Shown in pieces: positions 3,625-50,239 of a DNA stretch of 64,000 bases. The position numbers were made by a program, and so were the translations under genes. This stretch comes from Candidatus Levyibacteriota bacterium (GTDB lineage: Bacteria; Patescibacteriota; Microgenomatia; Levybacterales; UBA12049), in contig JACPLG010000003.1 in the NCBI GenBank assembly GCA_016186625.1, positions 98,576 to 162,575 on the forward strand. Direction: 5' to 3'. Within the stretch, counting starts at the first letter, position 1. The number at the start of each line of letters is the position of its first letter. Below the pieces are notes generated by a model. The model made no database searches. It was not told the origin of the DNA and saw nothing but the letters and a program-made list of their open reading frames with translations.

Positions 3625-3693
3625 ACCCATCGTGGTTTGGGGCTGCGCCGTAACCGTTAATAGCGCGGATTTTGCGGTTGCAGGGAGGTGATA

Positions 3694-4335: not shown

Positions 4336-4337
4336 AG

Positions 4338-5160: not shown

Positions 5161-5214
5161 ATCCCCTTATCCCACACCAGTATGTGCAGACACATAGGGA
5201 TTCGGTGGCGATAA

Positions 5215-5511: not shown

Positions 5512-5543
5512 ATAAGATTTACAGTTTTATCTTTGGTAAATTT

Positions 5544-6194: not shown

Positions 6195-6249
6195 TTTTTA
6201 AGCTTATAAAAGAATTTTTAAAAAGTAAAGAATCCCCTCCGAAAACGGA

Positions 6250-6357
6250 GTGCTATAATTGCCCCAATGAATGATAGAATCTTGCTTCCCACATTCCAAG
6301 TGGGAAGGTACATTCAGACACCAAAAACCCTAAGCACAACTCTGCTACAATTGCCCC
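6250..6357 (+). repeat. ~110-bp interspersed repeat, copy 1: promoter-like motif at both ends, central hairpin CTTCCCACATTCCAAGTGGGAAG, embedded short ORF
   Basis: Near-identical to 12758-12865 (a few mismatches); hairpin at 6285-6307. Confidence 0.8.
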
Positions 6358-6435
6358 AATTTTCTTGTTGACAATATTTTTCTTTGGGAGTATGTTGCAA
6401 ATACAACCTATACAAGAAAGGGGGTGAAGAAATAA

Positions 6436-7197
6436 ATGGGTATTTCACAAACAAAGTGGACTTTGGGAATTGTTGCCATAGTAATAATTGCCGTTGCAGC
6501 AATTTTTGTCTACCAATCCAAAGTAAGTAACATTCCCTCAACTCAACCAACTTCGCAAGAGTCAACGACAATCGGTAAAATAACTGATATTACGTTTGTA
6601 AATCATATACAGGCAAAGCTACCTGAGCAGGACGTTTTCATTCAAAGTAAGGATGACTCTTCAAAGGTAATACGTGTTGAAGGCGAAACGGCAAGCGATC
6701 CATCAGTATTAGCTCAAACTGTCTATGCGACAGCTGTTGAAACACCGCATGACCCTTTTAAAGTGGGCGACAATCCCTTGGGGCCTTTTCAAAAAGGTGT
6801 TAATCTAGGATTCAACTTAGAAGACTGGCTGGCAGCAACGGGTAAAGGTACGTACAGTGTTGATGGCGATGATGCAGAGCTTTCTCTCTCATTTACAAAC
6901 CTTGTGCCAAATAGCACTTATACTGTTTGGTGTTCACGAATCACTTTCCCACCTACTCCAAATGTGGTGGACAGGCCATGTGGTGCAGCGGATGGCTCAG
7001 AGAATGTATTTACAACAGATGAGAATGGGAATGGTTTATTTTCAGTAAAAATGGAACCATTAGAACCAAGCACCAAAGAAACAGTATCGGCTATTGCACT
7101 TGCTTATCATAGTGATGGAAAAACATACGCGGAAAGTCCTGGCAATTTTGGACTTAACAGCCACGTACAGATTTTCTATCTTTTGCCGGCACAATAA
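6436..7197 (+). CDS. membrane-anchored hypothetical protein
   Basis: SD AAAGGGGGTGAAG; N-terminal TM; 253 aa. Confidence 0.6.
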   Translation: MGISQTKWTLGIVAIVIIAVAAIFVYQSKVSNIPSTQPTSQESTTIGKITDITFVNHIQAKLPEQDVFIQSKDDSSKVIRVEGETASDPSVLAQTVYATAVETPHDPFKVGDNPLGPFQKGVNLGFNLEDWLAATGKGTYSVDGDDAELSLSFTNLVPNSTYTVWCSRITFPPTPNVVDRPCGAADGSENVFTTDENGNGLFSVKMEPLEPSTKETVSAIALAYHSDGKTYAESPGNFGLNSHVQIFYLLPAQ

Positions 7198-7383
7198 TAG
7201 TTAGATAGATATCTGTCTCATACCTGTATGTTTATCTAGCCATATATTTTTTTGTGATAAAGTTGGTTACTTCCCTTGCCCTTCAGGGTGAAACCTTCAG
7301 GATGAATCCCTCGAAGTTCAGCATTGCATGAACGAAGTGGGGTGCTATAATTGCCCCAAAATTTTGCTATCCAAATTACATAG

Positions 7384-7758
7384 CTAATTTTTATTTAGTT
7401 TTTGTCTTTTAATACGAATGCCTGAGAGGGAAATTATAATCAAATTCCCTGAATAATCATTTTTCCTAAGTTTACTTAAGGCAGATTTTACAGCTTTATT
7501 AATGTAACCAGTAGAAAGTTCGTTTGGGAATCGTAGAATTACAATTCCACTATGAGACCCAAGCGGAAAGTTTAATATGTTTGAAAATCCTAAGTCAGCG
7601 GAAAATAAAACAGCTTTATTACCTTTGGCAAACTTAAATATTTCTATATCTGCCTTGCCTCTTAGGCCATGGTCTCTAACATCAAATACATTAAATCCTA
7701 GATTCGAGAGTACATTTGCTAAAGATTTGTGAAGATCCTCATCTATTAAGGCATTCAT
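7384..7758 (-). CDS. DUF5615-family (PIN-like) putative toxin
   Basis: Sequence pattern of DUF5615; 4-nt overlap with upstream DUF433 gene. Confidence 0.65.
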   Translation of the reverse strand: MNALIDEDLHKSLANVLSNLGFNVFDVRDHGLRGKADIEIFKFAKGNKAVLFSADLGFSNILNFPLGSHSGIVILRFPNELSTGYINKAVKSALSKLRKNDYSGNLIIISLSGIRIKRQKLNKN

Positions 7759-8012
7759 CTGAGGGCGACTTCTTCTTCCTCAACAAGTTTTGTGGCGTAC
7801 TTTAAAGCCGCTAAGACTTGCTGGCGAGTAAGTTCGTACTCTTTCATAACCTCATCTACGCTCATCCCTCCGGCAATTTTACCCACAACCACGTCAACCG
7901 GTACGCGCGTTTTTTCAATAATTGGTTTTCCAAAACGTACTTTTGGATCAACAATAATATGTGGAAAAATTTGCTTTTTCATACGACCACTAGTATAGCA
8001 TAACTTAATCAT
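7755..8012 (-). CDS. DUF433-family putative antitoxin
   Basis: IVDPKVRFGKPIIEKTRVPVDVVVGKIAGGMSVDEVMKEYELTRQQVLAALKYA is the canonical DUF433 pattern; start ATG 8012 is more plausible than ORF-track GTG 8036. Confidence 0.65.
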   Translation of the reverse strand: MIKLCYTSGRMKKQIFPHIIVDPKVRFGKPIIEKTRVPVDVVVGKIAGGMSVDEVMKEYELTRQQVLAALKYATKLVEEEEVALR

Positions 8013-8157
8013 GGTTTTTTCTTTGCATTTTTGCACTAGTTAAAATAACGACAGGTTTTCCTGATCGAGTGATTAAAACCTTTTTGTTTCCATAAAATAC
8101 CTCGTTTATTATTTCAGAAAAATTTTGTCGAGCCTGTTTTGCTGTTACCGTTTTCAC
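8005..8157 (-). CDS. Phd/YefM-like antitoxin N-terminal domain (50 aa), not in ORF track
   Basis: Manual translation VKTVTAKQARQNFSEIINEVFYGNKKVLITRSGKPVVILTSAKMQRKNHD parallels E. coli YefM (ARQNLS...ILITRQNG...VLMS); GTG start; its stop overlaps the ATG of the DUF433 gene (cATGATTAA). Confidence 0.5.
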   Translation of the reverse strand: MKTVTAKQARQNFSEIINEVFYGNKKVLITRSGKPVVILTSAKMQRKNHD

Positions 8158-8222
8158 ATCCTGATTTTATTTAACGCGATTACAAAAAAAGTTATAGAGT
8201 TATCTCTGCTATAATTGCCCCA

Positions 8223-8897
8223 ATGGATTTGGACAATAAAAGTGTGGTAATAGTTGGCGCCTCAAGCGGTTTGGGCAAAGCTTTGGCTAAACTTTTGTCC
8301 AAAGAGGGCACAAACTTATTTCTTATCTCAAGAAAAGTCGCCTTATCAAATATTCCCTCCGCTATAAAAATTGCTGCTGATGTAAGAAAAGCCGAAAATA
8401 TAAAAATAGCATTTGAGGAAATTGACAAACACACAGGTAGCATAGATCTTCTAATCAATTGTGCAGGCATAGGTCTTTTAAAAGATTTAAGGGAATCGAC
8501 AATAGAGGAAATAAATGATGTTATTGATACGGATTTAAAAGGGGCAATTTACGTAGCTCAGGAAGTTTATAAAAGAATGGCGGAGAAAGGATCGGGACAT
8601 ATCATAAATATTGTCTCTACTTCGGGACTCCGAGCCAGACCCATGGAGACAGTTTATTGCGCTGCAAAATGGGGACTTCGGGGATTTACAGAAAGTCTCC
8701 AAGTCGCTGGAGAAGAAACAGGAGTTAAGGTAACCGGAGTCTATCCGGGCGGAATGAAATCTGAAAATTTCTGGAAAATAACTCCAGGAAAAGATATAAG
8801 CGGCTTTATGGACCAAAATGAAGTCGCCCAAAAGATTATAGATTTAATCAAGGGGGATTACCAAAAAGAAGTAACAATAGAGCGTCCCAAAAAATAA
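8223..8897 (+). CDS. short-chain dehydrogenase/reductase (SDR) family oxidoreductase
   Basis: VVIVGASSGLGKA (TGxxxGxG), YCAAKWG (YxxxK); ATG 9 nt after TATAAT of the repeat motif. Confidence 0.85.
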   Translation: MDLDNKSVVIVGASSGLGKALAKLLSKEGTNLFLISRKVALSNIPSAIKIAADVRKAENIKIAFEEIDKHTGSIDLLINCAGIGLLKDLRESTIEEINDVIDTDLKGAIYVAQEVYKRMAEKGSGHIINIVSTSGLRARPMETVYCAAKWGLRGFTESLQVAGEETGVKVTGVYPGGMKSENFWKITPGKDISGFMDQNEVAQKIIDLIKGDYQKEVTIERPKK

Positions 8898-8906
8898 CTT
8901 CTCTGC

Positions 8907-8912
8907 TATAAT
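8907..8912 (+). promoter_or_regulatory. copy of TGCTATAATTGCCCC motif with no ORF downstream; candidate sRNA promoter
   Basis: Followed by ~110 nt of non-coding sequence ending in a perfect 10-bp palindrome TCAATGATTT/AAATCATTGA plus AGTTTT (9003-9028). Confidence 0.4.
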
Positions 8913-9050
8913 TGCCCCATTTATCCTTAGCCTCAAAAGGTCTCACCTTGCAAGGCTAAAACTCCATCGTCTAGTCTACGGTCTTATCTTCCATGGATTA
9001 ATTCAATGATTTAAATCATTGAAGTTTTCAGCTTCTGCTATAATTGCCCC

Positions 9051-9773
9051 ATGGACTCAGGAGATTTTCAGAGACGTTTTGAACAAGCACACAAACTCCT
9101 CACCCAGGAGACAACCAACCGAGAGAAATTTGAGGGAGTACGAACTTTGATAAAAGGTTATAATCCCAAAGTTGACAGCGCTTTAGAAAAAGTCTCCGGT
9201 GCTTTGTCTGATCTTGAAAAGCTTAAGGAAGGAGAAATAATTGAACTTAGCGCTCAACATTTACCCGAAAATTCGGAAGAAGAGAAGGAAAGAAAAAAGA
9301 AACTTTTAGCTTTTATTCGTTATTGGAAAGATTTAACTTCAGAAGTTGAAAGAGTTAGAAATGAGCTTTCTTCGCAAAACAACCAAAGCCCGTCCCAACA
9401 AGTCTCTGCTTTTGGAAAAATTGTCAAACTTGCAAAAGGACCATTTGGGGCAGTTACAATTGCTGCAGTTGCTATCGTTGCCGTACTGGGATTTATTAAT
9501 TTTCAAAAACCACCGGAAACGGTTCAGAATCAAGCGATCGATGAAAGTCCAAAACAAAAGATCCAAGTTATTGTAGTAGATGACAAAAAAATTCCTTTAA
9601 GCGAAGTTAGATCTGCAACTGGGAGTGAATGTGAAGGAAAAGCCCATTACCATGCAAGGGAGAATGGTGTTGCTGTGGCAATTGATGGAACGCAAGTCGT
9701 TGATCCAAATCCAACAAGCTGCGGCTATGGAAAAGTGGAAGAAGTTAAGATTGAAGAAATAGAACAACCCTAA
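9051..9773 (+). CDS. hypothetical bitopic membrane protein (cytoplasmic coiled-coil N-domain, one TM, extracytoplasmic C-domain)
   Basis: ATG directly follows the TGCTATAATTGCCCC motif; TM GAVTIAAVAIVAVLGFI. Confidence 0.5.
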   Translation: MDSGDFQRRFEQAHKLLTQETTNREKFEGVRTLIKGYNPKVDSALEKVSGALSDLEKLKEGEIIELSAQHLPENSEEEKERKKKLLAFIRYWKDLTSEVERVRNELSSQNNQSPSQQVSAFGKIVKLAKGPFGAVTIAAVAIVAVLGFINFQKPPETVQNQAIDESPKQKIQVIVVDDKKIPLSEVRSATGSECEGKAHYHARENGVAVAIDGTQVVDPNPTSCGYGKVEEVKIEEIEQP

Positions 9774-9793
9774 ACTTCTGCTATAATTTATGT

Positions 9794-10369
9794 ATGGCAG
9801 TAACATCTACAATGCTTCCGCTTGGCACAAAGGCACCGGATTTTAGTTTACCTGATGTTGTTTCAAATAAAACTGTAAACCTTGAAATCTTTAACGATAA
9901 AAAAGCACTTCTTGTTATGTTCATTTGTCGCCATTGTCCATATGTAAAACATGTCCAAAATGAAATAGCAAAAATCGGAAAAGATTATGAGGATAAAGAT
10001 TTGGGGATTGTCGCAATTAGTGCAAATGATGTTTCGGTTTATCCTGAAGACGGGCCGCAAAGTTTGAAAGAAATGGCAGATGAGTTAGGGTTTACTTTTC
10101 CCTATTTATATGATGAAGCACAAGAGGTTGCAAAAGCATACACTGCAGCTTGTACTCCGGATTTGTTTTTGTTCGATCATGATAGAAAATTAGTTTATAG
10201 AGGACAACTCGATGGGAGTCGGCCAGGCAATAACGAACCTGTAACTGGAAAAGATATAAGAGCGGCAATTGATGCGGTGCTTAATGATAGTGAAGTTTCA
10301 AAAGGCCAAAAACCGAGCATGGGCTGCAGCATTAAATGGAAGATCGGTAATGAACCTTCGTATTTCTAA
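9794..10369 (+). CDS. thioredoxin-fold (redoxin/TlpA-like) protein with CxxC
   Basis: KAPDFSLPD...LVMFICRHCPYV redoxin pattern; ATG 6 nt after TATAAT. Confidence 0.7.
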   Translation: MAVTSTMLPLGTKAPDFSLPDVVSNKTVNLEIFNDKKALLVMFICRHCPYVKHVQNEIAKIGKDYEDKDLGIVAISANDVSVYPEDGPQSLKEMADELGFTFPYLYDEAQEVAKAYTAACTPDLFLFDHDRKLVYRGQLDGSRPGNNEPVTGKDIRAAIDAVLNDSEVSKGQKPSMGCSIKWKIGNEPSYF

Positions 10370-10378
10370 AGAACTAAT

Positions 10379-11140
10379 TTATTTGTATTTTTTAATCAGT
10401 CCTTCAAAAGCGCGGAGCACTTCAAGAGGAGTTACGAAAACTATAGTGTTACTTTTGTCGGATGATAATTCCGAAAGAGTCTGCAGAGTACGGACGTGGA
10501 GACCTCCTGTAGTTTTGGCAAGCCTTCCAGCTGCAATAGCAATATTTTCCGCTGCTGCTTTTTCTCCTTCAGCCCGAATAACAATTGCCCGGCGCTCCCT
10601 TTCTGCTTCAGCCTGGCGTGCTATAACTCTTTTCATCTCTTCTGGCAAAATAATATCTTTTAACTCCACTGACTCTACCTTAATACCCCATGGATCTGTA
10701 GCCCTATCTATAATTGTCTGAATTTTTTTGGCAACTTGATCGCGCTTTGAGAGTAAATCGTCAAGAGAAGTTTCTCCAATTACATTTCTCATAGTTGTTT
10801 GAGCCAGCTGGGACACTGCATAAAAGAAATCCTCTACCTGCAAAACCGCCTTTTTTGCCTGATCTACGCGGTAATAAATGACAGCATTAACGCGGGCTGA
10901 AACATTATCCCGAGTGATTGCTTCCTGATCCGGAACGTCTACTGCCTTTACCCTGATGTCAATTCTTTGCCAGCCTTCTATAATAGGCCAAACAATTCTC
11001 CATCCGGGAACCATCTCGTCTCGAAATTTTCCAAAGCGGAAGCGGACTCCGCGCTCATATTGATTAACCTGTTTTATAGAGGGAATAAGAATTACCAAGA
11101 AAAAGATAATAATCCCAAGTGAAAAGACTGCAAAATCCAT
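10379..11140 (-). CDS. SPFH/band-7 (stomatin/prohibitin-like) membrane protein
   Basis: N-terminal TM plus ERGVRFRFGKF...; typical SPFH domain and coiled-coil tail. Confidence 0.85.
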   Translation of the reverse strand: MDFAVFSLGIIIFFLVILIPSIKQVNQYERGVRFRFGKFRDEMVPGWRIVWPIIEGWQRIDIRVKAVDVPDQEAITRDNVSARVNAVIYYRVDQAKKAVLQVEDFFYAVSQLAQTTMRNVIGETSLDDLLSKRDQVAKKIQTIIDRATDPWGIKVESVELKDIILPEEMKRVIARQAEAERERRAIVIRAEGEKAAAENIAIAAGRLAKTTGGLHVRTLQTLSELSSDKSNTIVFVTPLEVLRAFEGLIKKYK

Positions 11141-11229
11141 TTGGGAAGTATATTACATCAAAACATTTACATTATCAAATTAAGAAAACAGATTTTGAAA
11201 TTTCTATTCTCTGCTATAATTGCCCCGGT

Positions 11230-11667
11230 TTATTGCTTTATATACCTTTCTATTTCTTTTAGAAAATCATCCGGTGTTAGAATTTCTATTTGACGAAAGG
11301 TTTTCAATGTTAATAAATCACTATCTCCTGTTACAATAAAGCCAGATTTACCTTCAATTGCTGCTTCAAGTACTCTATTGTCGTCCTCATCTTCAAGGAT
11401 ATAAATAATTTCATCTGGATGGATAATTTTAAAATGTTTTTTTATGATTTTTTCTAACTGCTTGACTCTGATCAGCTCAAAATTAAATTTTTTGGTTAAA
11501 GTTTCTGTTAATTCAGCAAGGAGCACTGGAGAACTTATCCCAATAATTTGTTTTTCTAAAATGAGGCTATAAACTTGTTCTGGTTTTCCGCCAAATACTA
11601 GAGCGGAGATAATAACATTTGTGTCGAGGACTGCTTTAGGAGGCTTTTTTACCATGCCTAAATTCAT
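11230..11667 (-). CDS. PIN-domain toxin (VapC-like)
   Basis: VLDTNVIISAL N-terminal PIN motif; acidic residues D...E...D; overlaps upstream RHH gene. Confidence 0.75.
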   Translation of the reverse strand: MNLGMVKKPPKAVLDTNVIISALVFGGKPEQVYSLILEKQIIGISSPVLLAELTETLTKKFNFELIRVKQLEKIIKKHFKIIHPDEIIYILEDEDDNRVLEAAIEGKSGFIVTGDSDLLTLKTFRQIEILTPDDFLKEIERYIKQ

Positions 11668-11887
11668 AAACGATCTTATTTACTTCCTTTTCGCTTTTAA
11701 TCCCCATTTTTTTACCAACTTTTTTGCCATAGTCTAAAAGATCATTCCATTCCTGCCTGTCTTGCAAATAAACTCTTAAAGCCTCACGAATTAGCTCGCT
11801 TCTGTTGCGATATTCTTTTTTAGCAAGAATGTCTACTCTTTTGACTAAGTCTTTTGGAAGAGCAATGTTTAATGTTTGTGTTGCCAT
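11636..11887 (-). CDS. ribbon-helix-helix (CopG-like) antitoxin
   Basis: MATQTLNIALPKDLVKRVDILAKKEYRNRSELIREALRVYL RHH pattern; the matching minus-strand promoter is listed separately at 11896-11924. Confidence 0.65.
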   Translation of the reverse strand: MATQTLNIALPKDLVKRVDILAKKEYRNRSELIREALRVYLQDRQEWNDLLDYGKKVGKKMGIKSEKEVNKIVYEFRHGKKAS

Positions 11888-11895
11888 ATACAAAT

Positions 11896-11924
11896 ATTGT
11901 ATGTAATTGATATATCTTTGTCAA
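11896..11924 (-). promoter_or_regulatory. consensus sigma70-type promoter for the RHH-PIN operon (leaderless)
   Basis: Minus-strand TTGACA (11919-11924), 17-nt spacer, TACAAT (11896-11901), 8 nt to ATG at 11887. Confidence 0.6.
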
Positions 11925-12007
11925 CACTCAAAAACCATCATCTGCTATAATTGCCCCAAATTGCAAACAGCCCATTTTGCACTATTTAATCTCCCAGAAT
12001 AATTGTA

Positions 12008-12035
12008 TTGACAAAGTATGTACAGTTAGTATAAT
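12008..12035 (+). promoter_or_regulatory. consensus sigma70-type promoter for brnTA (leaderless)
   Basis: TTGACA (12008-12013), 16-nt spacer, TATAAT (12030-12035), 6 nt to GTG start 12042. Confidence 0.6.
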
Positions 12036-12041
12036 ATGTAA

Positions 12042-12323
12042 GTGAAATATAAGTTTGATTATTCGCTAGAGAAAGATTTAATTCTTAAAGAATCAAGAGG
12101 TGTTAGCTTTAGAGAAGTAATTCAAGCATACAGAACTGGGAAAAAGCTTGCTGACTATGAAAACAAAAGCAAAAAACACCCTAATCAAAGACTTTTAATT
12201 GTTAATATCAAAGGCTATGCATACGTTACGCCATATGTTATAGATGAAAAAAGGAAAAGAGTATTTTTAAAAACTGTATATCCAAGCAGCAAATTAACTA
12301 AGGAGTACATAAAAAAATTATGA
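12042..12323 (+). CDS. brnT: BrnT-like toxin (DUF497 ribonuclease)
   Basis: KFDYSLEKDLILKESRGVSFREVIQAY...RLLIVNIKGYAYVTPYV pattern of BrnT/DUF497; 4-nt overlap with downstream antitoxin. Confidence 0.65.
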   Translation: MKYKFDYSLEKDLILKESRGVSFREVIQAYRTGKKLADYENKSKKHPNQRLLIVNIKGYAYVTPYVIDEKRKRVFLKTVYPSSKLTKEYIKKL

Positions 12324-12628
12324 AAAAGAAAAAATTTGATCCATTTAAAAATCTTAAACTAGATAAATACGAACAGGAAATAGAAGATGCTCTTGAAAGA
12401 GAGGAATTTGTTCCTGTAGAAGACTCTTCGGAAATTAATAAAATATTGACAGAGGCTGCAAAAAATTATACCGAGCTTGAAAACAGCAAGAGTATAACTT
12501 TAAGAATTAAAAATATAGATCTAATAAAATTAAAAGCAAAAGCCGCAAGAAATAAAATTCCCTATCAGACTCTTATAAATTTACTTATAAAAGAATACAC
12601 AGAAGGCAAAACAAAAATATCATTGTAA
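12320..12628 (+). CDS. brnA: BrnA-like antitoxin
   Basis: Typical position and size after brnT; ITLRIKNIDLIKLKAKAARNKIPYQTLINLLIKEY matches the BrnA C-terminal RHH-like region. Confidence 0.6.
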   Translation: MKKKKFDPFKNLKLDKYEQEIEDALEREEFVPVEDSSEINKILTEAAKNYTELENSKSITLRIKNIDLIKLKAKAARNKIPYQTLINLLIKEYTEGKTKISL

Positions 12629-12757
12629 ATTCCTCAATTCTCATAGTTTGAAAAGGTGAGGGGTGCTTGCCCTGTTTACCCTGAACACTTGGAGGGAGCA
12701 ATGCCGAAGGGTTTACGCAGAGCGAAAGTGGGGTGCTTGCCCTGAGCAATGCCGAAG

Positions 12758-12865
12758 GACTATAATTGCCCCAATGAATAATAGAATCTTGCTTCCCACA
12801 TTCCAAGTGGGAAGGTACATTCAGACACCAAAAACCCTAAGCACAACTCTGCTATAATTGCCCCA
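12758..12865 (+). repeat. ~110-bp interspersed repeat, copy 2
   Basis: Near-identical to 6250-6357; hairpin 12792-12814; preceded by internal direct repeats GGGGTGCTTGCCCTG...GCAATGCCGAAGG x2 (12660-12758). Confidence 0.8.
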
Positions 12866-12867
12866 GA

Positions 12868-13083
12868 TCATTTTAGTCTTAAGAATTCTTCTTCGCTAGA
12901 CTCCGCTTGTTTGATTATGCCTCTTACTAGTCCTTTTTTGAGTTCTTTGGTGTGCATTGGAACAGGAATAATCTTCTTTGATTTGGGATTATACATAATA
13001 AGATGACTGCCGGTTTGTCTTTTCTTAATGTATCCGAGTTTTTGAAGAATTTTGACTATCTCTCTTGCTTTAAAACTAGCCAT
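12868..13083 (-). CDS. hicA: HicA-family mRNA interferase toxin
   Basis: REIVKILQKLGYIKKRQTGSHLIMYNPKSKKIIPVPMH is the canonical HicA (YcfA-like) pattern. Confidence 0.75.
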   Translation of the reverse strand: MASFKAREIVKILQKLGYIKKRQTGSHLIMYNPKSKKIIPVPMHTKELKKGLVRGIIKQAESSEEEFLRLK

Positions 13084-13347
13084 TTATAGAGATACTGCTG
13101 GATTTTGTACGGAAATTTGCGTGATGACAACATTTGACCCTTCTTGTGGAATTTCTTGCTTCTCTTCTTTAAGAACCTCTAAATACCCTTTCATAGCGTC
13201 TTTTATCATAGATACCGCTTCCTCAAAAGTCTCACCTTGACTTACACAGCCGGGAAGAGCTGGAACACTAACTACATAACCGCCTTCTTCAGCCGGTTCA
13301 AAAATAACAGTATATTTTAAGATTTTTTTAGAAAGAGATTTAGCCAT
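13084..13347 (-). CDS. hicB: HicB-family antitoxin
   Basis: YTVIFEPAEEGGYVVSVPALPGCVSQGETFEEAVSMIKDAMKGYLE HicB N-domain pattern; TATAAT 6 nt upstream of ATG (leaderless). Confidence 0.75.
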   Translation of the reverse strand: MAKSLSKKILKYTVIFEPAEEGGYVVSVPALPGCVSQGETFEEAVSMIKDAMKGYLEVLKEEKQEIPQEGSNVVITQISVQNPAVSL

Positions 13348-13586
13348 GCTCTAATTATATCACACCCAAACCTTATCTTCCTTGCCCCTCGAAGCTTTTT
13401 GCGAAGTGGGGTGCTATAATTGCCCCCCAAAAAAAGCCCTAATGGATAATATACTTCATTACTTTAAAGTATTGAAGTATATAATAATTTTTCCCTTTTT
13501 CCTCGTAGCATTTCTGTTTACACTGAGTAAAACCGAAGTGCTATAATTGCCCCGGGGGTTATTAATAAAAAAAATGACCCCTGAAT

Positions 13587-13898
13587 ATGTTTAATTTCTT
13601 ATCTGATTTAATCTATTTAATATTAGTTGGCTCAATATCGCTATTAACAATAATAGTTACAAAAAATAGCTTGTCAAAAAAGATATTAGCAAAAGATCCC
13701 AAGGCATTACTTATCAATAATTCCTTAATTATCTTTGGAATTATATTAATAATTATTGTATTTATTAAATATTCGTGGATTGCTGGAATTACAACAATAA
13801 CTATTGCTTTAATCATTTATATTATTATTGCTAGAATATTAGCACGTGCTCTCGAGAAAAATTTATTTGAGTCTCATAAAAAAGAAGGGCAAGAGTAA
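13587..13898 (+). CDS. small polytopic membrane protein (3 TM), unknown function, in AT-rich islet
   Basis: 103 aa, highly hydrophobic; local GC about 25%. Confidence 0.4.
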   Translation: MFNFLSDLIYLILVGSISLLTIIVTKNSLSKKILAKDPKALLINNSLIIFGIILIIIVFIKYSWIAGITTITIALIIYIIIARILARALEKNLFESHKKEGQE

Positions 13899-13978
13899 AT
13901 TCTTCAAAACATCTATAAAAACTTGACTCCGAGGCTAATGAATGGGAAAATGAGCGAGTATTATAGCTGTGGAATAAA

Positions 13979-14503
13979 ATGTTTGTTCCAAATATTAAAA
14001 CCAAAAATAAATTATTCGTACTCTCTTTTTTATCCTTGATGGCTATAATTATTTTTTTAAGTCTAAATAAAATGACAGTAAATTATAGGCTTTCGGCATT
14101 TCTAAGTTTAGCTGCAACTCTAACCTTTTTCTATACATATTTTAAAGAGGCAATATTTGATTGGCATGCTGATCCAAATAGTCAAACCATTAAAAAAATT
14201 AATGGTAAATTAGAAAAAACCTGGTTAGATAAACGAAAAGAATTGAAAGATAAAGAATCATTTATAAAAGATGCTCCTGCTGCTTGGGTGATTGAAGGAT
14301 ATATTCACGTGTTCCTAGGTTTAGCATTGGGCTGGTTTTTCTTTTGGATACTTTTAAATAGATTAAAATTTTTTGATGGAAAATTGGACCTCTCTTCATT
14401 AGGACTACCAGATCTAATTCTATTAATTGCTGGTTGGATCGGAATAAATGGTAGATTACCAACTATTGCTCACGCTGTCCAAGAATGGTTTAAGAGAAGC
14501 TAA
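13979..14503 (+). CDS. polytopic membrane protein (about 4 TM), unknown function
   Basis: 174 aa; AT-rich islet. Confidence 0.45.
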   Translation: MFVPNIKTKNKLFVLSFLSLMAIIIFLSLNKMTVNYRLSAFLSLAATLTFFYTYFKEAIFDWHADPNSQTIKKINGKLEKTWLDKRKELKDKESFIKDAPAAWVIEGYIHVFLGLALGWFFFWILLNRLKFFDGKLDLSSLGLPDLILLIAGWIGINGRLPTIAHAVQEWFKRS

Positions 14504-14571
14504 TAAATTTTAGCATTCTGATATACTTTCTTCTTGTAATCCCCGTAAAAGGATGTTATACTAGTATCAAC

Positions 14572-15351
14572 ATGCACGACATCAATCGCTTGCCACTATC
14601 TCAAATAAAACTATTGCTGCGTTTTTGGAATAATCCCAATAAAATAGGATTTGCTGAGGGAAGAGAAGAGGGAGGTAGTGTAAAGGAATTAAACAAAAAG
14701 GGTCTGATTGAACCAGCAGGGAAAATAGGGCGTAGAGTTAGATGGAGATTAGTCACTGGTAAACTCAACAGTCGAGATATTGATGTAATGATTGGCTTAA
14801 TCAAACACTCTCCAATTCCTGCCGAAGAGGAAAGCTTGATAGTTGAGCTTATAGGGGAAGCAAAAGATCTAGCGATACTAATATCAAGAAATATAGGTAC
14901 AAAAGGTTATCATTATTTTTTACAATCTTTTTTCTTGGTTCTTCGACAAATGGGCTATTTTTTTACTGAACACTCATCAACTATATTTCACTATAGCTCA
15001 GCTCTCTCTCAAGCCGAGGTAGAGATCTTGGAAAAAATCAGAGATATTCGTGATGCAATAGGACACCGAGAATCTCGAAAGAATTTTCTAACAGCTAATA
15101 TTAAACTAGTTGGAGGAATGTTTTTCAAAAATAACGATGTAGAAATTCAATATGGTAGAAATAAAATTTATTTAGTGGGTGAGATTCTTGCGATACATAA
15201 AAAAATGAGAAAGCTTTTTTCTAGCGCAGACGAACTCGCTTTTTTAAGTAGAAGCTATGGATGGCAGTATGACGAAAAAGAACTCCGAGAAGCCGAAAAA
15301 CAGTTGATAGAAAAACTCAAAAATCCAAAAGCTCTTATAAATTTAGAATAG
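14572..15351 (+). CDS. hypothetical cytoplasmic protein, possible N-terminal winged helix and R-x4-H (HEPN-like) motif
   Basis: 259 aa; motif IRDAIGHRESR; no recognisable enzyme family; assignment tentative. Confidence 0.45.
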   Translation: MHDINRLPLSQIKLLLRFWNNPNKIGFAEGREEGGSVKELNKKGLIEPAGKIGRRVRWRLVTGKLNSRDIDVMIGLIKHSPIPAEEESLIVELIGEAKDLAILISRNIGTKGYHYFLQSFFLVLRQMGYFFTEHSSTIFHYSSALSQAEVEILEKIRDIRDAIGHRESRKNFLTANIKLVGGMFFKNNDVEIQYGRNKIYLVGEILAIHKKMRKLFSSADELAFLSRSYGWQYDEKELREAEKQLIEKLKNPKALINLE

Positions 15352-15636
15352 TATTTTTTTAAAAACTAATTCTTACAAAGCTCTTGCATTATATTCCTTG
15401 ACATGTATACAGGTCGCTTTGCTCCAATTTCTAATTTCTAGTTACTAATTTCTAATCAATTCCATACAGAATTTCTATTGATAATTTTTTAAGAATGTTT
15501 AGAATATAAATATGAAGAAAAGTGCCATGACAGAGGGCTGGAATTCATCTCTTAACAAACTCGCCCGATCTTTATACTGATTTGTGCTCAATTTTAGTCT
15601 ATGCTAAGCTAAATACGGTTATTGTTTGCCTTGAGT

Positions 15637-17508
15637 ATGAATATAAAAAATAAGCTTTTGGGTTTTATTCAGCTTCCTATTCTTATTATCCTTATTGCTA
15701 CCGGGGCACTGGGTACTTTTACAGTAGTCAAAGGCCCGGAGCTTGTTGAGGAGTATAAGCAGGGACAGCTTCAAAAAGAGTTGGCACAAAAAAGCCTGCC
15801 TCAGGGCGCTGCAACTGCGGATACAATTCTTGTAGGATTTAGAACCGGAGTTCCCACCACCCAGCGGGATTTTATTCATCAAAAGCTTAGCATCGCTCTC
15901 AAAAAAAGAGTAAATCAAATAAATGCGGATGTTATTAACGTTCCTGCTGGGACGCCGGTTTCGGAACTTATTGATAAATACAGACAAAATCCTCAGGTGG
16001 AATATGCAGAGCCCAATTTCCTTGCCGCCGCATTTTTAACGCCAAATGACCCATATTACGGGAGCCAGTGGAATCTGCAAAAAGTTTTAGTGGAAGAAGC
16101 ATATGATCTTGCCAAAGGAGGAGGGGCGCTTATTGCTGTTGTTGATACGGGTGTTGACGGGAGCCATCCTGATCTATCGGGACTTGTTATTGAGGGATAT
16201 AACACAATTGATGAAAATAACAATTCTTTTGATGATCACGGTCATGGGACGCATGTTGCAGGAATTGCATCAGCCCAAACCGACAACGGGAGCGGTATTG
16301 CAAGCATGTCCTTTGCATCAAGTGTCCTGCCGGTAAAAGTACTCAATAAAGACGGAGTAGGCACATACGCCGATGTTTCGGAGGGGATAATTTATGCTTC
16401 GGACAACGGCGCCCGGATTGTCAATTTAAGCCTGGGCGGAAGCTCAGACTCAGAAACACTTAAAAGAGCTGTAAGATACGCACAGTCAAAGGGAAGTATT
16501 TTAGTTGCGGCGGCAGGCAACAGCGGTAATGATGCGCCTGTCTACCCGGCCGCCTATGAGGGTGTTTTGGCGGTTTCCGCATCAGATAAAAATGATAATT
16601 TGGCGCCGTTTTCAAGCTATGGCAGTAATATTTTTGCCGCATCTCCGGGCGTTTCTATTACCTCATCTGTTCCAGGAAGCGACTACAAGCAAGCAAGCGG
16701 AACGTCCATGGCAGCGCCGCATGTCTCAGGGCTTTTAGCTTTATCAATCTCTCACAAACCGGAATTATCCAACTCGGAACTTATTGATCAGATAAAACAA
16801 AACGCTGAAAAGGTGGGTCAATACAGCTACAATGAAGACGGATGGAACCCTTATTTTGGTTACGGCAGAATCAGTGCCGGAAAAACTCTTACTGCAATTT
16901 CATCGGATGAAACAACAGAAGAAGAGCCGGAGCCAACATTAGATACATCCTCTTCCTCCCGTCTTTCCAAACAGGCAAAAGTGCCCCAGGCATATTCATT
17001 TTCCTTTGACTTGCAGGGTGCTGTTGAGGCAGTGAACACCTTTGATAGCAAACTTACCCTGAAAGTGGGAGGAGGAACACCAAATGTTATGGAACGGCTT
17101 TCAGGCAATCTTATTGATGTATATATCAATTCACAAACCAGAATAAAATATCAAGGCAGGACAATTTCATTAACCCAGGTTTCAAGCGGTTCACAGCTTA
17201 ATATAAAAGGCAACATTATCCAAAACAGGCTTGTGGCGCTTGAAATAATTGTTCAATATCTTGCAACAGGACAGCCTATTGAGGCATTGCCAAATCAAAA
17301 TCAGAATCCTGGACAGGAAAATATCCCGCAATCCCAACAACAGGGTGAGCAGTCTCCTCAAGATTCAGGTCAATCATCGCAAGGCGGTGGAGCACCCCAA
17401 GTGCAATTGCCTCCTCAGGCAGGACAAGGTAAAGGAGTAAAGGGTATTTCTGTAATTTCATGGCTTCAGTTTATTCAGGAAAAAGCATTCGGATTATTTA
17501 ATAAGTGA
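15637..17508 (+). CDS. secreted subtilisin-like serine protease (peptidase S8) with Gln/Pro/Gly-rich C-terminus
   Basis: IAVVDTGVDGSHPDL, HGHGTHVAGIAS, SGTSMAAPHVSGLLAL; ORF-track TTG 15622, ATG 15637 preferred. Confidence 0.9.
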   Translation: MNIKNKLLGFIQLPILIILIATGALGTFTVVKGPELVEEYKQGQLQKELAQKSLPQGAATADTILVGFRTGVPTTQRDFIHQKLSIALKKRVNQINADVINVPAGTPVSELIDKYRQNPQVEYAEPNFLAAAFLTPNDPYYGSQWNLQKVLVEEAYDLAKGGGALIAVVDTGVDGSHPDLSGLVIEGYNTIDENNNSFDDHGHGTHVAGIASAQTDNGSGIASMSFASSVLPVKVLNKDGVGTYADVSEGIIYASDNGARIVNLSLGGSSDSETLKRAVRYAQSKGSILVAAAGNSGNDAPVYPAAYEGVLAVSASDKNDNLAPFSSYGSNIFAASPGVSITSSVPGSDYKQASGTSMAAPHVSGLLALSISHKPELSNSELIDQIKQNAEKVGQYSYNEDGWNPYFGYGRISAGKTLTAISSDETTEEEPEPTLDTSSSSRLSKQAKVPQAYSFSFDLQGAVEAVNTFDSKLTLKVGGGTPNVMERLSGNLIDVYINSQTRIKYQGRTISLTQVSSGSQLNIKGNIIQNRLVALEIIVQYLATGQPIEALPNQNQNPGQENIPQSQQQGEQSPQDSGQSSQGGGAPQVQLPPQAGQGKGVKGISVISWLQFIQEKAFGLFNK

Positions 17509-17531
17509 GAAAATGAAAAGGAGGTGAGAAA

Positions 17532-18242
17532 ATGTTAAAGAAACTAATATTATTAGTGCTTGCTTTATTTTTGTTTGCCGGAGTAGCGCAAGCCCAAACT
17601 GAAGAGTTACCGGATCCCGGTATTACACCGGACAGCCCGCTATATTTTTTTGATACCTTGGGAGAAAACATTGGTTTGTTTTTTGCTTTTGGAGATGAAG
17701 CAAAAACAAGAAAAGCTGTTGAAATTGCAAATGAAAAAGTAGCCGAAGCACAGGCAATGGCTGAAAAAGGTAATGAGGATGCGGCAGAAATTGCAGCAGA
17801 ACGTTATGGTAAGGTAATAAGTACGGCTGCTGAAAGTCTTGCAGCTTCGGCAAGAAGCGGTGAAGGCTTTGATGAAGCTTTGGCCCAGCTTATTGCACAG
17901 GCAACATCCATCCATTTAAGTGTTTTGGCCGATGTATATGACAGGGTTCCTGATCAGGCAAAGTCATCCATTGAGCGGGCAATGCAGGAAAGCGTTAGAG
18001 GAGGAGAAGAAGCATTGAATGCTGTTTCGGGAGAAAAACGAGAAGAGGTAATGCAACAAGTTGAGGAGAAAAGGCAAGAGGTTAAGCAAAAACTCGATAC
18101 CTTGCGTAAAGAAGGAAAACCAATTCCAAATATCCAAACGGGTAATGAACAGGGAGCGCCTGAAGGAGCAGGAGGAGCTGGTGGCGGAAACAGCGGAGCC
18201 CAAAATGTTGGAAGACCAGAGCAAGTTCCGGGAAGACCGTAA
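17532..18242 (+). CDS. secreted Ala/Glu-rich protein; possible in-frame continuation to 18385
   Basis: SD AAAGGAGGTGAG; signal peptide LLVLALFLFAGVAQAQ; the same frame continues after TAA 18240-18242 for 47 more protein-like codons. Confidence 0.55.
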   Translation: MLKKLILLVLALFLFAGVAQAQTEELPDPGITPDSPLYFFDTLGENIGLFFAFGDEAKTRKAVEIANEKVAEAQAMAEKGNEDAAEIAAERYGKVISTAAESLAASARSGEGFDEALAQLIAQATSIHLSVLADVYDRVPDQAKSSIERAMQESVRGGEEALNAVSGEKREEVMQQVEEKRQEVKQKLDTLRKEGKPIPNIQTGNEQGAPEGAGGAGGGNSGAQNVGRPEQVPGRP

Positions 18243-18426
18243 GAAGGTAAAGCTCGTGAATGGCGGATTAGTTCGCCAGAAGAAGGAAGACCCGGATTAT
18301 CAGATGCTGAAATTAAAGATCGGTTAGAAAGAACAGGATTGCCTGGTGACCAGGTTAAGTATTTCCTGAAAAGAATGGCTACCTAAGTTTATAGCCTAGA
18401 GATTTCTCTGATATAATAATTCCCCA

Positions 18427-19392
18427 ATGAAGAAAGTTATTCTGCTTTTGATTATTTTCCTCGCAGTTTTGGGACTACTTTTTTATTTTTTAAGTCTGCT
18501 TCTGCCTACCGGCAAAAGTGATAAAGTTGAAATAGTAATTTTAAAAACACAAAGAGGCGACTCCACGGCACTTGTCCTTGAAGAGAAAGGCTTTATCCGC
18601 TCTTTTGCGGCATTTAATGTTGCCTACATAATTTTAGGAAGTCCCAAAATTGAAGAAGGGGGATATTATTTTTCAAAAAATATGTCTACTTGGAAAATAA
18701 TTGATGAGCTAGCAGATGGTCCTGACTTAAAAGAAGTGGTAATCACAGAAGGCTTGCGAAAAGAGCAAATCGGTGAAAGACTTGGGAAAGTGCTGGGATG
18801 GACAGACGAGGAACTGGACAAATGGAATAATGTCTATACTGAAATGAAACCGGAATACACCGAGGGTGTATATTTTCCGGACACCTATCTTATTCCGGTT
18901 AAAGAAAGCGGTCCGCTTGTTGCTGCACGAATGATTAATAATTTTAATGAAAAATTTGCGCCATATTTTGAACAAGCAGCAGCAAAAAATATCAAGTGGA
19001 CTACAGTTTTAAAAATTGCATCTCTTATTGAGCGAGAAGCTGCAGGAAGAGAGGACATGTCGCTAATCTCAGGGATTATCTGGAATAGGCTTGAGAATAA
19101 TCAAAGACTGGACATTGATGCAACCATTCAATATGCTATTGGCAAAAGAAGTGGAAATTGGTGGTCACGAGTTAGTGGGTCTGATATTAGAAACACTGAC
19201 TCAGTATATAACACCTATAAATACTCCGGTCTTCCGCCAACACCTATTGCCAATCCCTCCCTTTCGGCAATCAAAGCTGCACTAAATCCCAGGCAAACAG
19301 AATGCTTTTATTACCTTCACTCAAGTGGCCAAATTTACTGCTCCGTTACTTACGAAGAACATTTGGAAAACATTAAAAAATATTTGAATTGA
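18427..19392 (+). CDS. mltG: endolytic murein transglycosylase MltG (YceG family)
   Basis: N-terminal TM; YceG-like motifs EREAAGREDMSLISGIIWNRL...YNTYKYSGLPPTPIANPSLSAIKAALNP. Confidence 0.85.
   Translation: MKKVILLLIIFLAVLGLLFYFLSLLLPTGKSDKVEIVILKTQRGDSTALVLEEKGFIRSFAAFNVAYIILGSPKIEEGGYYFSKNMSTWKIIDELADGPDLKEVVITEGLRKEQIGERLGKVLGWTDEELDKWNNVYTEMKPEYTEGVYFPDTYLIPVKESGPLVAARMINNFNEKFAPYFEQAAAKNIKWTTVLKIASLIEREAAGREDMSLISGIIWNRLENNQRLDIDATIQYAIGKRSGNWWSRVSGSDIRNTDSVYNTYKYSGLPPTPIANPSLSAIKAALNPRQTECFYYLHSSGQIYCSVTYEEHLENIKKYLN

Positions 19393-48201: not shown

Positions 48202-50239
<2,038 letters not shown>

What the first reader, a model, noticed from the sequence alone, without database searches (positions are those of the whole stretch)
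13560..15620. Very AT-rich 2-kb islet encoding two small polytopic membrane proteins plus a wHTH/possible-HEPN protein: candidate uncharacterised defence or abortive-infection module
GC falls to roughly 25-30% here versus about 40% in the flanks, which suggests horizontal acquisition. The islet sits immediately downstream of the TA island and is entered from a TGCTATAATTGCCCC copy (13539). It has three co-directional ORFs with no recognisable enzymatic family: 103 aa with about 3 TM, 174 aa with about 4 TM, and a 259-aa soluble protein. The soluble protein has an N-terminal winged-helix-like segment and an R-x4-H motif (IRDAIGHRESR) reminiscent of HEPN RNases. A pairing of membrane effectors with a HEPN-like protein is a recurrent theme in abortive-infection systems. 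A 270-bp AT-rich spacer with CTAATTTCTAA repeats follows.
Basis: inference. Interest (0 to 1): 0.6.

Follow-up and report, generated by a model that had tools for sequence, protein, structure and literature searches.

The report
Orphan genes; one HEPN-like protein
The AT-rich stretch holds three real but unrelated rare genes rather than a three-part defence system, and only the 259-residue protein is notable, because it belongs to a small unclassified family whose invariant motif suggests an RNA-cutting (HEPN-type) defence or toxin enzyme.

Summary
The three co-directional ORFs (103, 174 and 259 aa), the TGCTATAATTGCCCC copy at 13539 and the R-x4-H motif are all present.

The source is a Candidatus Levybacteria (CPR) genome. 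The three genes do not form a conserved module. None of 12 independent lineages of the 259-aa family carries either membrane gene nearby. Neither do 3 other lineages of the 174-aa family or 1 other lineage of the 103-aa family.

The 259-aa protein has two separable domains. The N-terminal ~78 aa is a basic, winged-helix-like module. It also occurs alone and with a different C-terminus. The C-terminal ~180 aa is helical. It also occurs alone and fused to the end of type-I-like methylase-specificity proteins.

Across 29 diverged sequences R160, H165, D189 and G195 are invariant. The motif sits at the end of the third helix, as in HEPN RNases. Matches to four HEPN families are all below threshold, and Foldseek is inconclusive.

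Verdict: p259 is probably a new HEPN-like family acting as a solo conflict or defence effector. The membrane-effector pairing is not supported. Interest is modest.

The parts
13539..13553 (+). Last of 13 same-strand copies of TGCTATAATTGCCCC. It reads as an extended -10-like element (TGnTATAAT plus 6 nt) 33 nt upstream of the p103 start codon.
   Evidence: 13 matches against 0.16 expected, all on the + strand, all between 1419 and 13553. Flanks are listed.
13587..13898 (+). p103: a 103-aa small membrane protein with about 3 TM segments. One other lineage is known (P0031, 53% identity). Function unknown.
   Evidence: In L016 its homologue follows DUF433, HicA and HicB and precedes a class-I tRNA synthetase, with no p174 or p259 relative nearby.
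13979..14503 (+). p174: a 174-aa membrane protein with 3-4 TM segments and an invariant C-terminal motif IGINGRLPTIAHxVQxW. Three other lineages are known. Function unknown.
   Evidence: The neighbours of its homologues differ in every lineage: an XRE HTH in L010, a 133-aa unknown in L012, a 257-aa unknown in L014. A promoter-like site lies at 13923-13951.
14534..14562 (+). Promoter-like site for p259 (TTGTAA-17-TATACT with TG). Its -10 ends 9 nt before the ATG, which implies a near-leaderless mRNA (inference).
   Evidence: This is a consensus match only; the number of such sites is not above shuffles.
14572..14805 (+). p259 N-terminal module, residues 1-78. It is basic and winged-helix-like, with G34, P48, G50 and W58 invariant and the motif GRRxRW. 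The module is separable from the C-domain.
   Evidence: It occurs as 70-185-aa proteins and with a different C-terminal domain in P0023, P0024, P0062 and P0063. Model topology is helix, helix, beta-hairpin. MarR-type Foldseek hits are weak. There is no Pfam or PDB sequence support.
14809..15348 (+). p259 C-terminal domain, residues 80-259. It is helical with a beta-hairpin insert and is the candidate HEPN-like RNase domain.
   Evidence: Stand-alone ~180-aa homologues exist, and the domain is fused to the C-terminus of N6_Mtase + Methylase_S proteins. The domain model has pLDDT 75.8 and pTM 0.76. For the HEPN evidence.
15049..15066 (+). R160-D-A-I-G-H165, the invariant R-x4-H motif.
   Evidence: R and H are present in 29 of 29 sequences, D/N/H follows R in 27 of 29, and A is at +2 in 26 of 29. 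The motif lies at the C-terminal end of helix 147-163.
15136..15156 (+). D189-VEIQY-G195, a conserved beta-hairpin after the motif, with D and G invariant.
   Evidence: Strands 189-194 and 198-201 appear in the model. In the extended hhalign it aligns loosely with EDGEV-YA of the pEK499 HEPN.
15352..15636 (.). AT-rich intergenic region upstream of the S8 peptidase gene. It carries four ATTTCTA cores (15427-15477) and a promoter-like site (15478-15505). It is most likely the control region of the peptidase gene and not part of the islet.
   Evidence: The peptidase was called as 623 aa from the ATG at 15637 in L001. There is no remnant of the HNH partner gene here.

Best explanation
The 'islet' is the distal edge of an AT-rich accessory region (toxin-antitoxin pairs and small cassettes) in a Candidatus Levybacteria genome. 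It holds three independently distributed, independently promoted rare genes, not one system.

**The two membrane genes**
- p103 and p174 are small membrane proteins of unknown function. Each belongs to its own tiny family.

**The 259-aa protein**
- p259 is a two-domain soluble protein.
- A separable, basic, winged-helix-like N-terminal module is joined to a ~180-aa helical domain.
- The helical domain is best read as a new, unclassified family of the HEPN superfamily.

**Inferred mechanism**
- The C-domain dimerises as HEPN domains do, and uses R160 and H165 as a metal-independent endoribonuclease site. The invariant D189-G195 hairpin may also contribute.
- The N-module binds nucleic acid or senses a trigger, and gates the nuclease.
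- RNA cleavage on activation arrests the cell or the invader.

**What is shown**
- The genes are real and conserved.
- The three-gene arrangement is not conserved.
- The domains are modular, the motif is invariant, and R-M fusions exist.

**What is inferred**
- The HEPN fold, RNase activity, the sensor role of the N-module and a defence role.
For: **Source and rarity**
- The source is a Candidatus Levybacteria MAG. The family has 24 hits among 5.8e9 clusters and 50 representatives among 1.84e9.
- It occurs in 3 of 185,579 species genomes.
- It is absent from IMG/VR, plasmids and phages.

**No module**
- tblastn of p103, p174 and p259 against all fetched loci shows no co-occurrence outside L001-L004, which come from the same population.
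- Clustering of neighbours in 11 lineages finds one recurrent neighbour only, an HNH/beta-rich protein in 3 lineages. It is absent here.
- A sixth full-length lineage (L032) has neither that partner nor the membrane genes.

**Modularity**
- Searches show each domain occurring without the other.
- P0049 and P0055 are N6_Mtase + Methylase_S + this domain.

**Motif**
- R160, H165, D189 and G195 are present in 29 of 29 sequences, and D/N/H follows R in 27 of 29.
- The motif's position at the end of the third helix matches the published HEPN description (PMC3710099).

**Sequence hints of HEPN**
- HEPN_Apea: E 0.014 in P0058 and E 0.074 for the family consensus.
- RiboL-PSP-HEPN: E 0.21. pEK499_p136: E 0.23.
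- The Apea and RiboL-PSP stretches span the motif. The member and stretch behind the pEK499_p136 hit were not traced.
- hhalign against the pEK499 HEPN nuclease gives P 0.018-0.024, motif on motif, and the score of 19.9 is reached by 0 of 150 shuffles.
- HepT chains recur among the weak Foldseek hits.

**Context**
- Homologues sit in variable, mobile-looking regions with serine recombinases, XRE, DUF3800 and TA genes.
Against: **HEPN assignment not established**
- No HEPN model is matched at its curated cut-off. The best is 16.3 bits against 24.4.
- NCBIfam, PADLOC and PHROGs give nothing.
- Foldseek against the PDB gives no hit with E below 1. The HepT hits are at E about 5 with TM about 0.33.
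- The model is of low confidence (pLDDT below 50) exactly around and after the motif, at residues 164-184.
- The weak sequence hits are all anchored on the motif, so they are not independent of it.

**Defence role not established**
- Several stand-alone homologues sit among housekeeping genes. One follows recR directly. That is not typical of defence islands.
- No antitoxin or immunity partner is conserved.

**Co-transcription not excluded**
- No + strand terminator-like site separates the three genes, so they may be transcribed together in this genome.
Confidence: 0.55

Rival explanations
1. The three genes form one abortive-infection module in which the HEPN-like protein senses infection or cleaves RNA, and the two polytopic membrane proteins act as effectors that depolarise the cell.
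For: - The genes are co-directional with short gaps of 80 and 68 bp, and no + strand terminator-like site lies between them.
- The islet sits beside TA pairs.
- The same arrangement is found in four other assemblies, but all are from the same sample series and are 100% identical.
Against: - There is no co-occurrence in 12 lineages of the p259 family, 3 of p174 and 1 of p103.
- None of the three gives a PADLOC hit.
- Each gene has its own promoter-like site.
- The p103 homologue lies next to a tRNA synthetase gene, and p174 homologues have different partners in each lineage.
Confidence: 0.07
2. p259 is a DNA-binding regulator or other non-catalytic protein. The winged-helix-like module binds DNA. 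The helical C-domain serves dimerisation or ligand binding, and its R/H pair binds a nucleotide or other ligand rather than catalysing cleavage.
For: - The top structural hits of the full model are MarR-family regulators.
- The HEPN name itself comes from nucleotide-binding domains, and non-catalytic HEPN members exist.
- Some homologues sit among housekeeping genes such as recR.
Against: - The C-domain is more often found without the N-module, and is fused to R-M methylase-specificity proteins.
- According to PMC3710099, non-catalytic HEPN domains have lost the Rx4-6H motif. Here R and H are invariant in 29 of 29, with the typical polar residue after R.
Confidence: 0.2
3. The C-domain is a new, non-HEPN nucleic-acid-binding or DNase domain linked to restriction-modification. 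Its conserved beta-hairpin plus helix (DVEIQYG...) would be the functional core, and the R-x4-H resemblance would be convergent.
For: - D189 and G195 are as invariant as R and H.
- One member (P0041) gives a near-threshold hit to DUF3276 over hairpin plus helix. E is 3.5e-4 and the score 21.1 bits against a 23.1 cut-off. I read DUF3276 as PUR-like from memory; that was not checked here.
- In P0049 and P0055 the domain stands where an effector might be expected in a methylase-specificity fusion with no recognised nuclease domain.
- There is no significant structural match to HEPN.
Against: - The pEK499 HEPN nuclease also has beta-type sequence after its RNSVAH motif and aligns colinearly over about 140 columns.
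- A beta-hairpin right after the motif is known in the Csx1 HEPN family.
- The DUF3276 hit comes from 1 of 27 members.
Confidence: 0.13

Closest known systems
pEK499_p136-like HEPN family (Pfam PF18736; 'HEPN family nuclease' WP_000528932 on E. coli plasmid pEK499)
   Same: - Small (~170 aa) stand-alone protein with phi-R-N/D-x-phi-A/G-H at the end of a helix.
- Non-helical, beta-type sequence follows the motif, and then a helix.
- hhalign aligns motif to motif (P about 0.02, 0 of 150 shuffles) and is colinear over about 140 columns at low stringency.
- The family is reported in R-M and Pgl contexts.
   Different: - The match is far below any membership threshold. hmmscan gives E 0.23 in one member only.
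- The window protein carries an extra N-terminal module and about 40 extra C-terminal helical residues.
- tblastn finds no match in 72,556 plasmids.
ApeA / Apea-like HEPN (Pfam PF18739)
   Same: - This is the best Pfam hit of the family: E 0.014 for P0058 and E 0.074 for the family consensus, both spanning the motif.
- ApeA-type HEPN genes are reported embedded in R-M operons.
   Different: - Scores of 13.9-16.3 bits are below the 24.4-bit cut-off.
- ApeA proteins carry a ~300-aa beta-rich N-terminal domain, not a ~78-aa winged-helix-like module.
EC042_2821-type HEPN proteins (wHTH + HEPN + REase, in R-M operons; Anantharaman et al. 2013)
   Same: They combine a winged-helix module with a HEPN domain and are linked to restriction-modification.
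   Different: - No sequence match was detected.
- p259 has no REase or zinc-ribbon domain.
- The comparison rests on the paper's table, not on a test done here.
HepT/MntA (HEPN-MNT) type II/VII toxin-antitoxin
   Same: - HepT chains (7bxo, 6m6u) are the only functionally coherent group among the weak Foldseek hits. They align over about 100 columns at rmsd 5-6 A.
- HepT is a small Rx4H RNase toxin.
   Different: - The hits are at E about 5 and prob about 0.1.
- No nucleotidyltransferase antitoxin gene, or any other conserved partner, lies next to family members.
Csx1-type HEPN (CRISPR-associated)
   Same: [quoted passage not shown] That is the same position as the DVEIQYG hairpin here.
   Different: There is no CARF domain, no CRISPR context and no sequence match.

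Membership tests
HEPN superfamily | Conserved Rx4-6H motif with a polar residue (N/D/H) right after R | tested here: met
   R160 and H165 are present in 29 of 29 sequences, and D/N/H follows R in 27 of 29. The criterion is taken from PMC3710099.
HEPN superfamily | [quoted passage not shown] | tested here: inconclusive
   The AlphaFold models show helices 84-107, 112-132 and 147-163, with a short insert helix at 139-144. R160 lies in the last turn and H165 just after it. A hairpin and helix 202-218 follow. pLDDT is below 50 for residues 164-184, and helix packing was not inspected.
HEPN superfamily | Significant sequence or profile match to a recognised HEPN family | tested here: inconclusive
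   Three HEPN families appear among 14 weak Pfam hits of 27 members, all below cut-off. hhalign against the pEK499 HEPN gives P 0.018-0.024, and 0 of 150 shuffles reach the score. NCBIfam gives nothing.
HEPN superfamily | Structural similarity to a solved HEPN domain | tested here: inconclusive
HEPN superfamily | Metal-independent endoRNase activity that depends on R and H | not testable with these tools
   This needs biochemistry.
Multi-gene abortive-infection or defence system (membrane effectors + HEPN) | Components co-occur in operons across unrelated genomes | tested here: not met
   There is no co-occurrence in any of 16 independent lineages of the three families.
Multi-gene abortive-infection or defence system (membrane effectors + HEPN) | Match to a known defence-system model | tested here: not met
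   PADLOC gives no hit for p103 or p174. For p259 it gives only a 21-residue AbiEi stretch at E 0.012. Family members P0018, P0040 and P0058 have no hit.
Winged helix-turn-helix | Helix-turn-helix followed by a beta-hairpin wing; match to wHTH families | tested here: inconclusive
   The model shows H9-20, H38-42 and strands 46-52 and 55-60, with the basic GRRVRWRL segment on the wing. MarR-type Foldseek hits are at E 0.5-3 and prob up to 0.87. Neither Pfam nor the PDB gives a wHTH hit for 22 members.
HEPN-MNT type toxin-antitoxin | Adjacent nucleotidyltransferase (MNT) antitoxin gene | tested here: not met
   There is no conserved neighbour in 11 lineages apart from an HNH/beta-rich protein in 3.

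The most novel reading that the evidence does not exclude
The ~180-aa domain founds a new branch of HEPN-like nucleases, with an Rx4H motif followed by an invariant D...G beta-hairpin. In CPR bacteria it would act as a single-protein abortive-infection or defence effector, and elsewhere as the effector arm of methylase-specificity fusions.

The ~78-aa N-module would be a portable sensor or adaptor that is swapped between different effector domains.

Separately, the 13 same-strand copies of a perfect extended -10-like 15-mer at unit boundaries could mark a new kind of site-specific cassette accretion. In that reading each inserted unit regenerates a promoter-bearing attachment site.
Probability: 0.25. 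Interest if true: 0.55.

Novelty: new member of a known kind. Interest (0 to 1): 0.3.

Why it matters
**If the HEPN reading holds**
- It adds a rare, unclassified family to the HEPN RNase superfamily. The family is found mostly in CPR and groundwater bacteria.
- It gives a compact candidate single-gene immunity or toxin effector.
- It has clear test residues: R160, H165, D189 and G195.
- It has a separable N-terminal module that looks like an exchangeable sensor.

**The negative result**
- Gene adjacency in one genome, plus a GC dip caused largely by membrane-protein codon content, was not enough to infer a system.

**Overall**
- A new HEPN-like family is an expected kind of discovery, so the overall significance is modest.

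Tried and rejected
**Family scans**
- Pfam, NCBIfam, PADLOC and PHROG scans of the three proteins gave no significant hit.
- phmmer and profile searches against PDB sequences returned only noise.
- An NCBIfam scan of all 27 C-domain members returned only noise.
- A Pfam scan of 22 N-module members gave no wHTH family.

**Structure searches**
- Foldseek of the full model and of the C-domain model against the PDB, and of the C-domain model against BFVD, gave nothing with E below 0.3.

**Sequence searches in other collections**
- tblastn of p259, P0058 and the family consensus against plasmids, and of p259 against phages, gave no relevant match.
- The family is absent from IMG/VR.

**Specific ideas tested and dropped**
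- The 257-aa protein upstream of a p174 homologue (L014) might have been a p259 analogue. BLASTP gives E 0.87 and Pfam gives nothing. Rejected.
- The spacer after p259 might have been a remnant of the HNH partner gene. tblastn finds no trace. Rejected.
- Rfam and tRNA scans of the window found nothing, so there is no tRNA-type integration site.
- The 15-mer occurs only as single copies in IMG/VR: 67 contigs with one match each and no arrays.
- Global-mode hhalign against the pEK499 HEPN is uninformative.
Full report
**1. What is in the sequence**

The three + strand ORFs exist as described: 13587-13898 (103 aa), 13979-14503 (174 aa) and 14572-15351 (259 aa). An exact TGCTATAATTGCCCC lies at 13539-13553. 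IRDAIGHRESR is residues 159-169 of the 259-aa protein.

Simple hydropathy gives about three TM segments for p103, three to four for p174 and none for p259. None of the three has a significant match in Pfam, NCBIfam, PADLOC or PHROGs.

The exact proteins are on record as hypothetical proteins HYW63_00850 and HYW63_00860 of a Candidatus Levybacteria MAG. The window is therefore a CPR (Microgenomates) genome.

**2. Composition**

- The islet's GC is 31.2% against 37.3% for the window. The sd of 2-kb windows is 3.8%.
- It is the lowest 2-kb stretch of the 64 kb, but a second stretch near 25-27 kb is within 0.5%.
- The upstream flank (TA genes, 11-13.5 kb) is also low, at 29-37%. Only the downstream S8 peptidase flank is 41-47%.
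- By gene, p103 is 24%, p174 is 30% and p259 is 35%.
- By GC3, p103 and p174 are at the 3rd-4th percentile of 68 ORFs, and p259 is at the 41st.

The dip is real but modest. It comes mostly from two Ile/Leu/Phe/Lys/Asn-rich membrane genes and from intergenic DNA. It continues the AT-rich accessory region upstream rather than marking a discrete islet.

**3. Are the three genes a module?**

Each protein has homologues elsewhere, so all three are real genes.

| Protein | Homologues found |
|---|---|
| p103 | one other lineage, 53% identity |
| p174 | three other lineages, 37-63% identity, invariant C-terminal IGINGRLPTIAHxVQxW |
| p259 | 24 clusters among 5.8e9; 50 representatives among 1.84e9 |

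I fetched the DNA around homologues of each. I then searched all loci with all three proteins.

- Outside four contigs of the same sample series, which are 100% identical, no locus carries two of the three genes.
- This holds for 12 independent lineages of the p259 family, 3 of p174 and 1 of p103.
- Clustering all neighbours within 4 kb in 11 lineages gave a single recurrent neighbour. It is a 275-aa protein with an HNH domain (ZorE/PtuB-like hits) and a beta-rich C-domain in L007 and L008. L009 has a 231-aa version carrying only that C-domain.
- The partner accompanies 3 of 6 full-length p259 lineages. It is absent from the window, including the spacer, and from L005 and L032.
- The p103 homologue follows DUF433, HicA and HicB and precedes a tRNA synthetase gene.
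- p174 homologues follow an XRE HTH, a 133-aa unknown or a 257-aa unknown, depending on lineage.
- In the window each gene has its own promoter-like site: the 15-mer at 13539, then 13923-13951, then 14534-14562. No + strand terminator-like site lies between the genes, so co-transcription here is not excluded.

The three genes are neighbours, not a conserved system.

**4. The 259-aa protein**

Alignments show two separable parts.

*N-terminal module (residues 1-78).*
- Conserved pattern: LPLxQ...GFAEGxxEGGxxKELxxKGxIEPxGKxGRRIRW, with G34, P48, G50 and W58 invariant.
- It occurs as 70-185-aa proteins, and joined to a different C-terminal domain in P0023, P0024, P0062 and P0063.

*C-terminal domain (residues 80-259).*
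- It occurs as stand-alone ~180-aa proteins in Omnitrophica, Parcubacteria, Uhrbacteria and other metagenomic lineages.
- In P0049 (872 aa) and P0055 (820 aa) it forms the C-terminal end of HsdM-like N6_Mtase + one Methylase_S target-recognition domain.
- Across 29 sequences down to about 24% identity, four residues are invariant: R160, H165, D189 and G195.
- The residue after R160 is D, N or H in 27 of 29 sequences, and A follows in 26 of 29.

**5. Is the C-domain a HEPN domain?**

The defining features, from Anantharaman et al. 2013 (PMC3710099), are these:
- an Rx4-6H motif with a polar N/D/H after R;
- frequent inserts between helices 2 and 3.

*Motif and fold.*
- The motif criterion is met.
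- The full-length AlphaFold model has pLDDT 71.3 and the domain model 75.8 with pTM 0.76.
- Both give helices 84-107, 112-132 and 147-163, with a short helix at 139-144. The motif ends the third long helix. A hairpin (189-201) and helix 202-218 follow, plus extra C-terminal helices.
- The order fits the HEPN description. A hairpin right after the motif has a precedent in Csx1.
- The model is unreliable (pLDDT below 50) for residues 164-184.

*Sequence tests.*
- Among the 14 weak Pfam hits of 27 members, three are HEPN families: Apea E 0.014, RiboL-PSP E 0.21 and pEK499_p136 E 0.23.
- The Apea and RiboL-PSP stretches span the motif. I did not trace which member gave the pEK499_p136 hit.
- The family consensus has HEPN_Apea as its only hit, at E 0.074.
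- I fetched the annotated 'HEPN family nuclease' of plasmid pEK499 and compared it with the family profile.
- hhalign's best local alignment puts IRDAIGHR on MRNSVAHF, with P 0.018-0.024.
- The score of 19.9 was reached by none of 150 shuffles (mean 12.1, sd 1.9, maximum 17.8).
- At low stringency the alignment is colinear over about 140 columns, with FKNNDVEIQYG opposite FRESQEDGEV-YA.

*Against.*
- Nothing reaches a curated cut-off, and NCBIfam gives nothing.
- Foldseek finds no PDB hit with E below 1. HepT chains appear only at E about 5.
- All the weak sequence hits lean on the same motif.

**6. The winged helix**

The model shows helix 9-20, a short helix 38-42 and a beta-hairpin 46-60 carrying GRRVRWRL. 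The top Foldseek hits of the full model are MarR-family regulators, but they are weak (E 0.5-3, prob up to 0.87). Pfam and PDB sequence searches of 22 members give no wHTH family. The wHTH is plausible and not shown.

**7. Most likely function**

- The invariant catalytic-type motif, the domain's life as a solo protein and its fusion to methylase-specificity proteins match the pattern described for HEPN RNases in conflict systems.
- So do its N-module being swapped between different C-domains, its HNH-nuclease partner in half of the full-length lineages, and its variable, often mobile-looking neighbourhoods. Those neighbourhoods include serine recombinases, XRE, DUF3800 and TA genes.
- I therefore propose a solo RNase effector. 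The C-domain would dimerise and cleave RNA through R160 and H165, and the N-module would bind nucleic acid or gate activity. All of these steps are inferred.
- Some stand-alone homologues lie among housekeeping genes, one directly after recR. No immunity partner is conserved. A regulatory or other non-toxic role therefore stays open.

**8. The membrane proteins and the spacer**

p103 and p174 remain of unknown function. Nothing links them to p259 beyond adjacency in this genome.

The 270-285-bp spacer is the upstream region of the S8 peptidase gene. It carries four ATTTCTA cores (15427-15477) and a promoter-like site. The exact CTAATTTCTAA occurs once. Similar AATTTCTAA clusters lie in two other intergenic regions.

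**9. Novelty and verdict**

The family is absent from Pfam (2025 copy), NCBIfam, PADLOC and PHROGs. It is very rare: 3 of 185,579 species genomes, and none in IMG/VR, plasmids or phages.

It is best filed as a probable new member of the HEPN superfamily with an unusual N-module. The three-gene abortive-infection reading is not supported. Interest is modest (0.3). The array of promoter-like 15-mers upstream may deserve its own look.

Noticed in passing
window 1419-13553: There are thirteen copies of TGCTATAATTGCCCC (11 exact or one mismatch), all on the + strand, and none in the remaining 50 kb. The expected number is 0.16. The motif reads as a perfect extended -10 plus a 6-nt discriminator. 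The ATG of + strand genes follows at 0-1 nt (8223, 9051), which suggests leaderless mRNAs. It also sits 3-27 nt beyond the stop codons of three minus-strand TA operons (7343, 11212, 12850). It therefore marks unit boundaries whatever the gene orientation, as in a cassette array built by repeated insertion at one site. I saw no recombinase-sized ORF in 1-19000, though these ORFs were not scanned against family models. In IMG/VR the motif occurs only as single copies, in 67 contigs.
   Followed up: partly
window 6246-6358 and 12753-12865; hairpin also at 5227-5248: A 113-nt repeat at 96% identity. Each copy is bounded by two copies of the 15-mer and contains the hairpin CTTCCCACATTCCAAGTGGGAA. 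A 27-aa mini-ORF starts right after the first 15-mer.
   Followed up: no
window 13442-13546: A 34-aa hydrophobic mini-ORF (MDNILHYFKVLKYIIIFPFFLVAFLFTLSKTEVL) lies between the 15-mer copies at 13412 and 13539. It could be a small membrane peptide gene or a chance ORF.
   Followed up: no
window 15427-15477, 48088-48125, 61131-61141: Clusters of AATTTCTAA-type repeats occur in three intergenic regions. These are upstream of the S8 peptidase gene, between divergent genes at 48088-48216, and between convergent genes at 61099-61201. They may be a genome-wide regulatory or structural motif.
   Followed up: partly
L007 6829-7656, L008 6788-7615, L009 2134-2829 (-): Full-length p259 homologues in 3 of 6 lineages are adjacent to a protein with a shared ~170-aa beta-rich C-domain. 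In two of them that protein also has an N-terminal HNH nuclease domain with ZorE/PtuB-like PADLOC hits. This may be a two-gene nuclease pair. The partner is missing from the window.
   Followed up: partly
proteins P0049 (872 aa) and P0055 (820 aa): The C-domain of p259 is fused to the C-terminus of HsdM_N + N6_Mtase + a single Methylase_S recognition domain. No recognised nuclease domain is present, so this domain may be the effector arm of a single-chain R-M-like enzyme.
   Followed up: partly
proteins P0023, P0024, P0062, P0063 and the ~20 short N-module proteins (P0054, P0061-P0078): The ~78-aa N-module of p259 exists alone and joined to an unrelated ~100-aa C-terminal domain. It looks like a portable adaptor or sensor domain.
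   Followed up: partly
window 13979-14503 and P0026-P0029: The p174 family has an invariant C-terminal stretch, IGINGRLPTIAHxVQxW, after its last TM segment. In one lineage the gene sits 16 nt after an XRE-type HTH gene.
   Followed up: no
protein P0041, residues 97-155: One member of the C-domain family gives a near-threshold hit to DUF3276 over the beta-hairpin plus following helix. E is 3.5e-4 and the score 21.1 bits against a 23.1 cut-off. I recall DUF3276 as a PUR-like nucleic-acid-binding repeat; that was not checked here.
   Followed up: no
window 1447-3624 and 15622-17508: Two subtilisin-type S8 peptidase genes bracket the whole accessory and TA region. Only the second has Pfam support (PF00082); the first is assigned from reading its translation. 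The first is preceded by a degenerate copy of the 15-mer (1419), and the second follows the islet.
   Followed up: no
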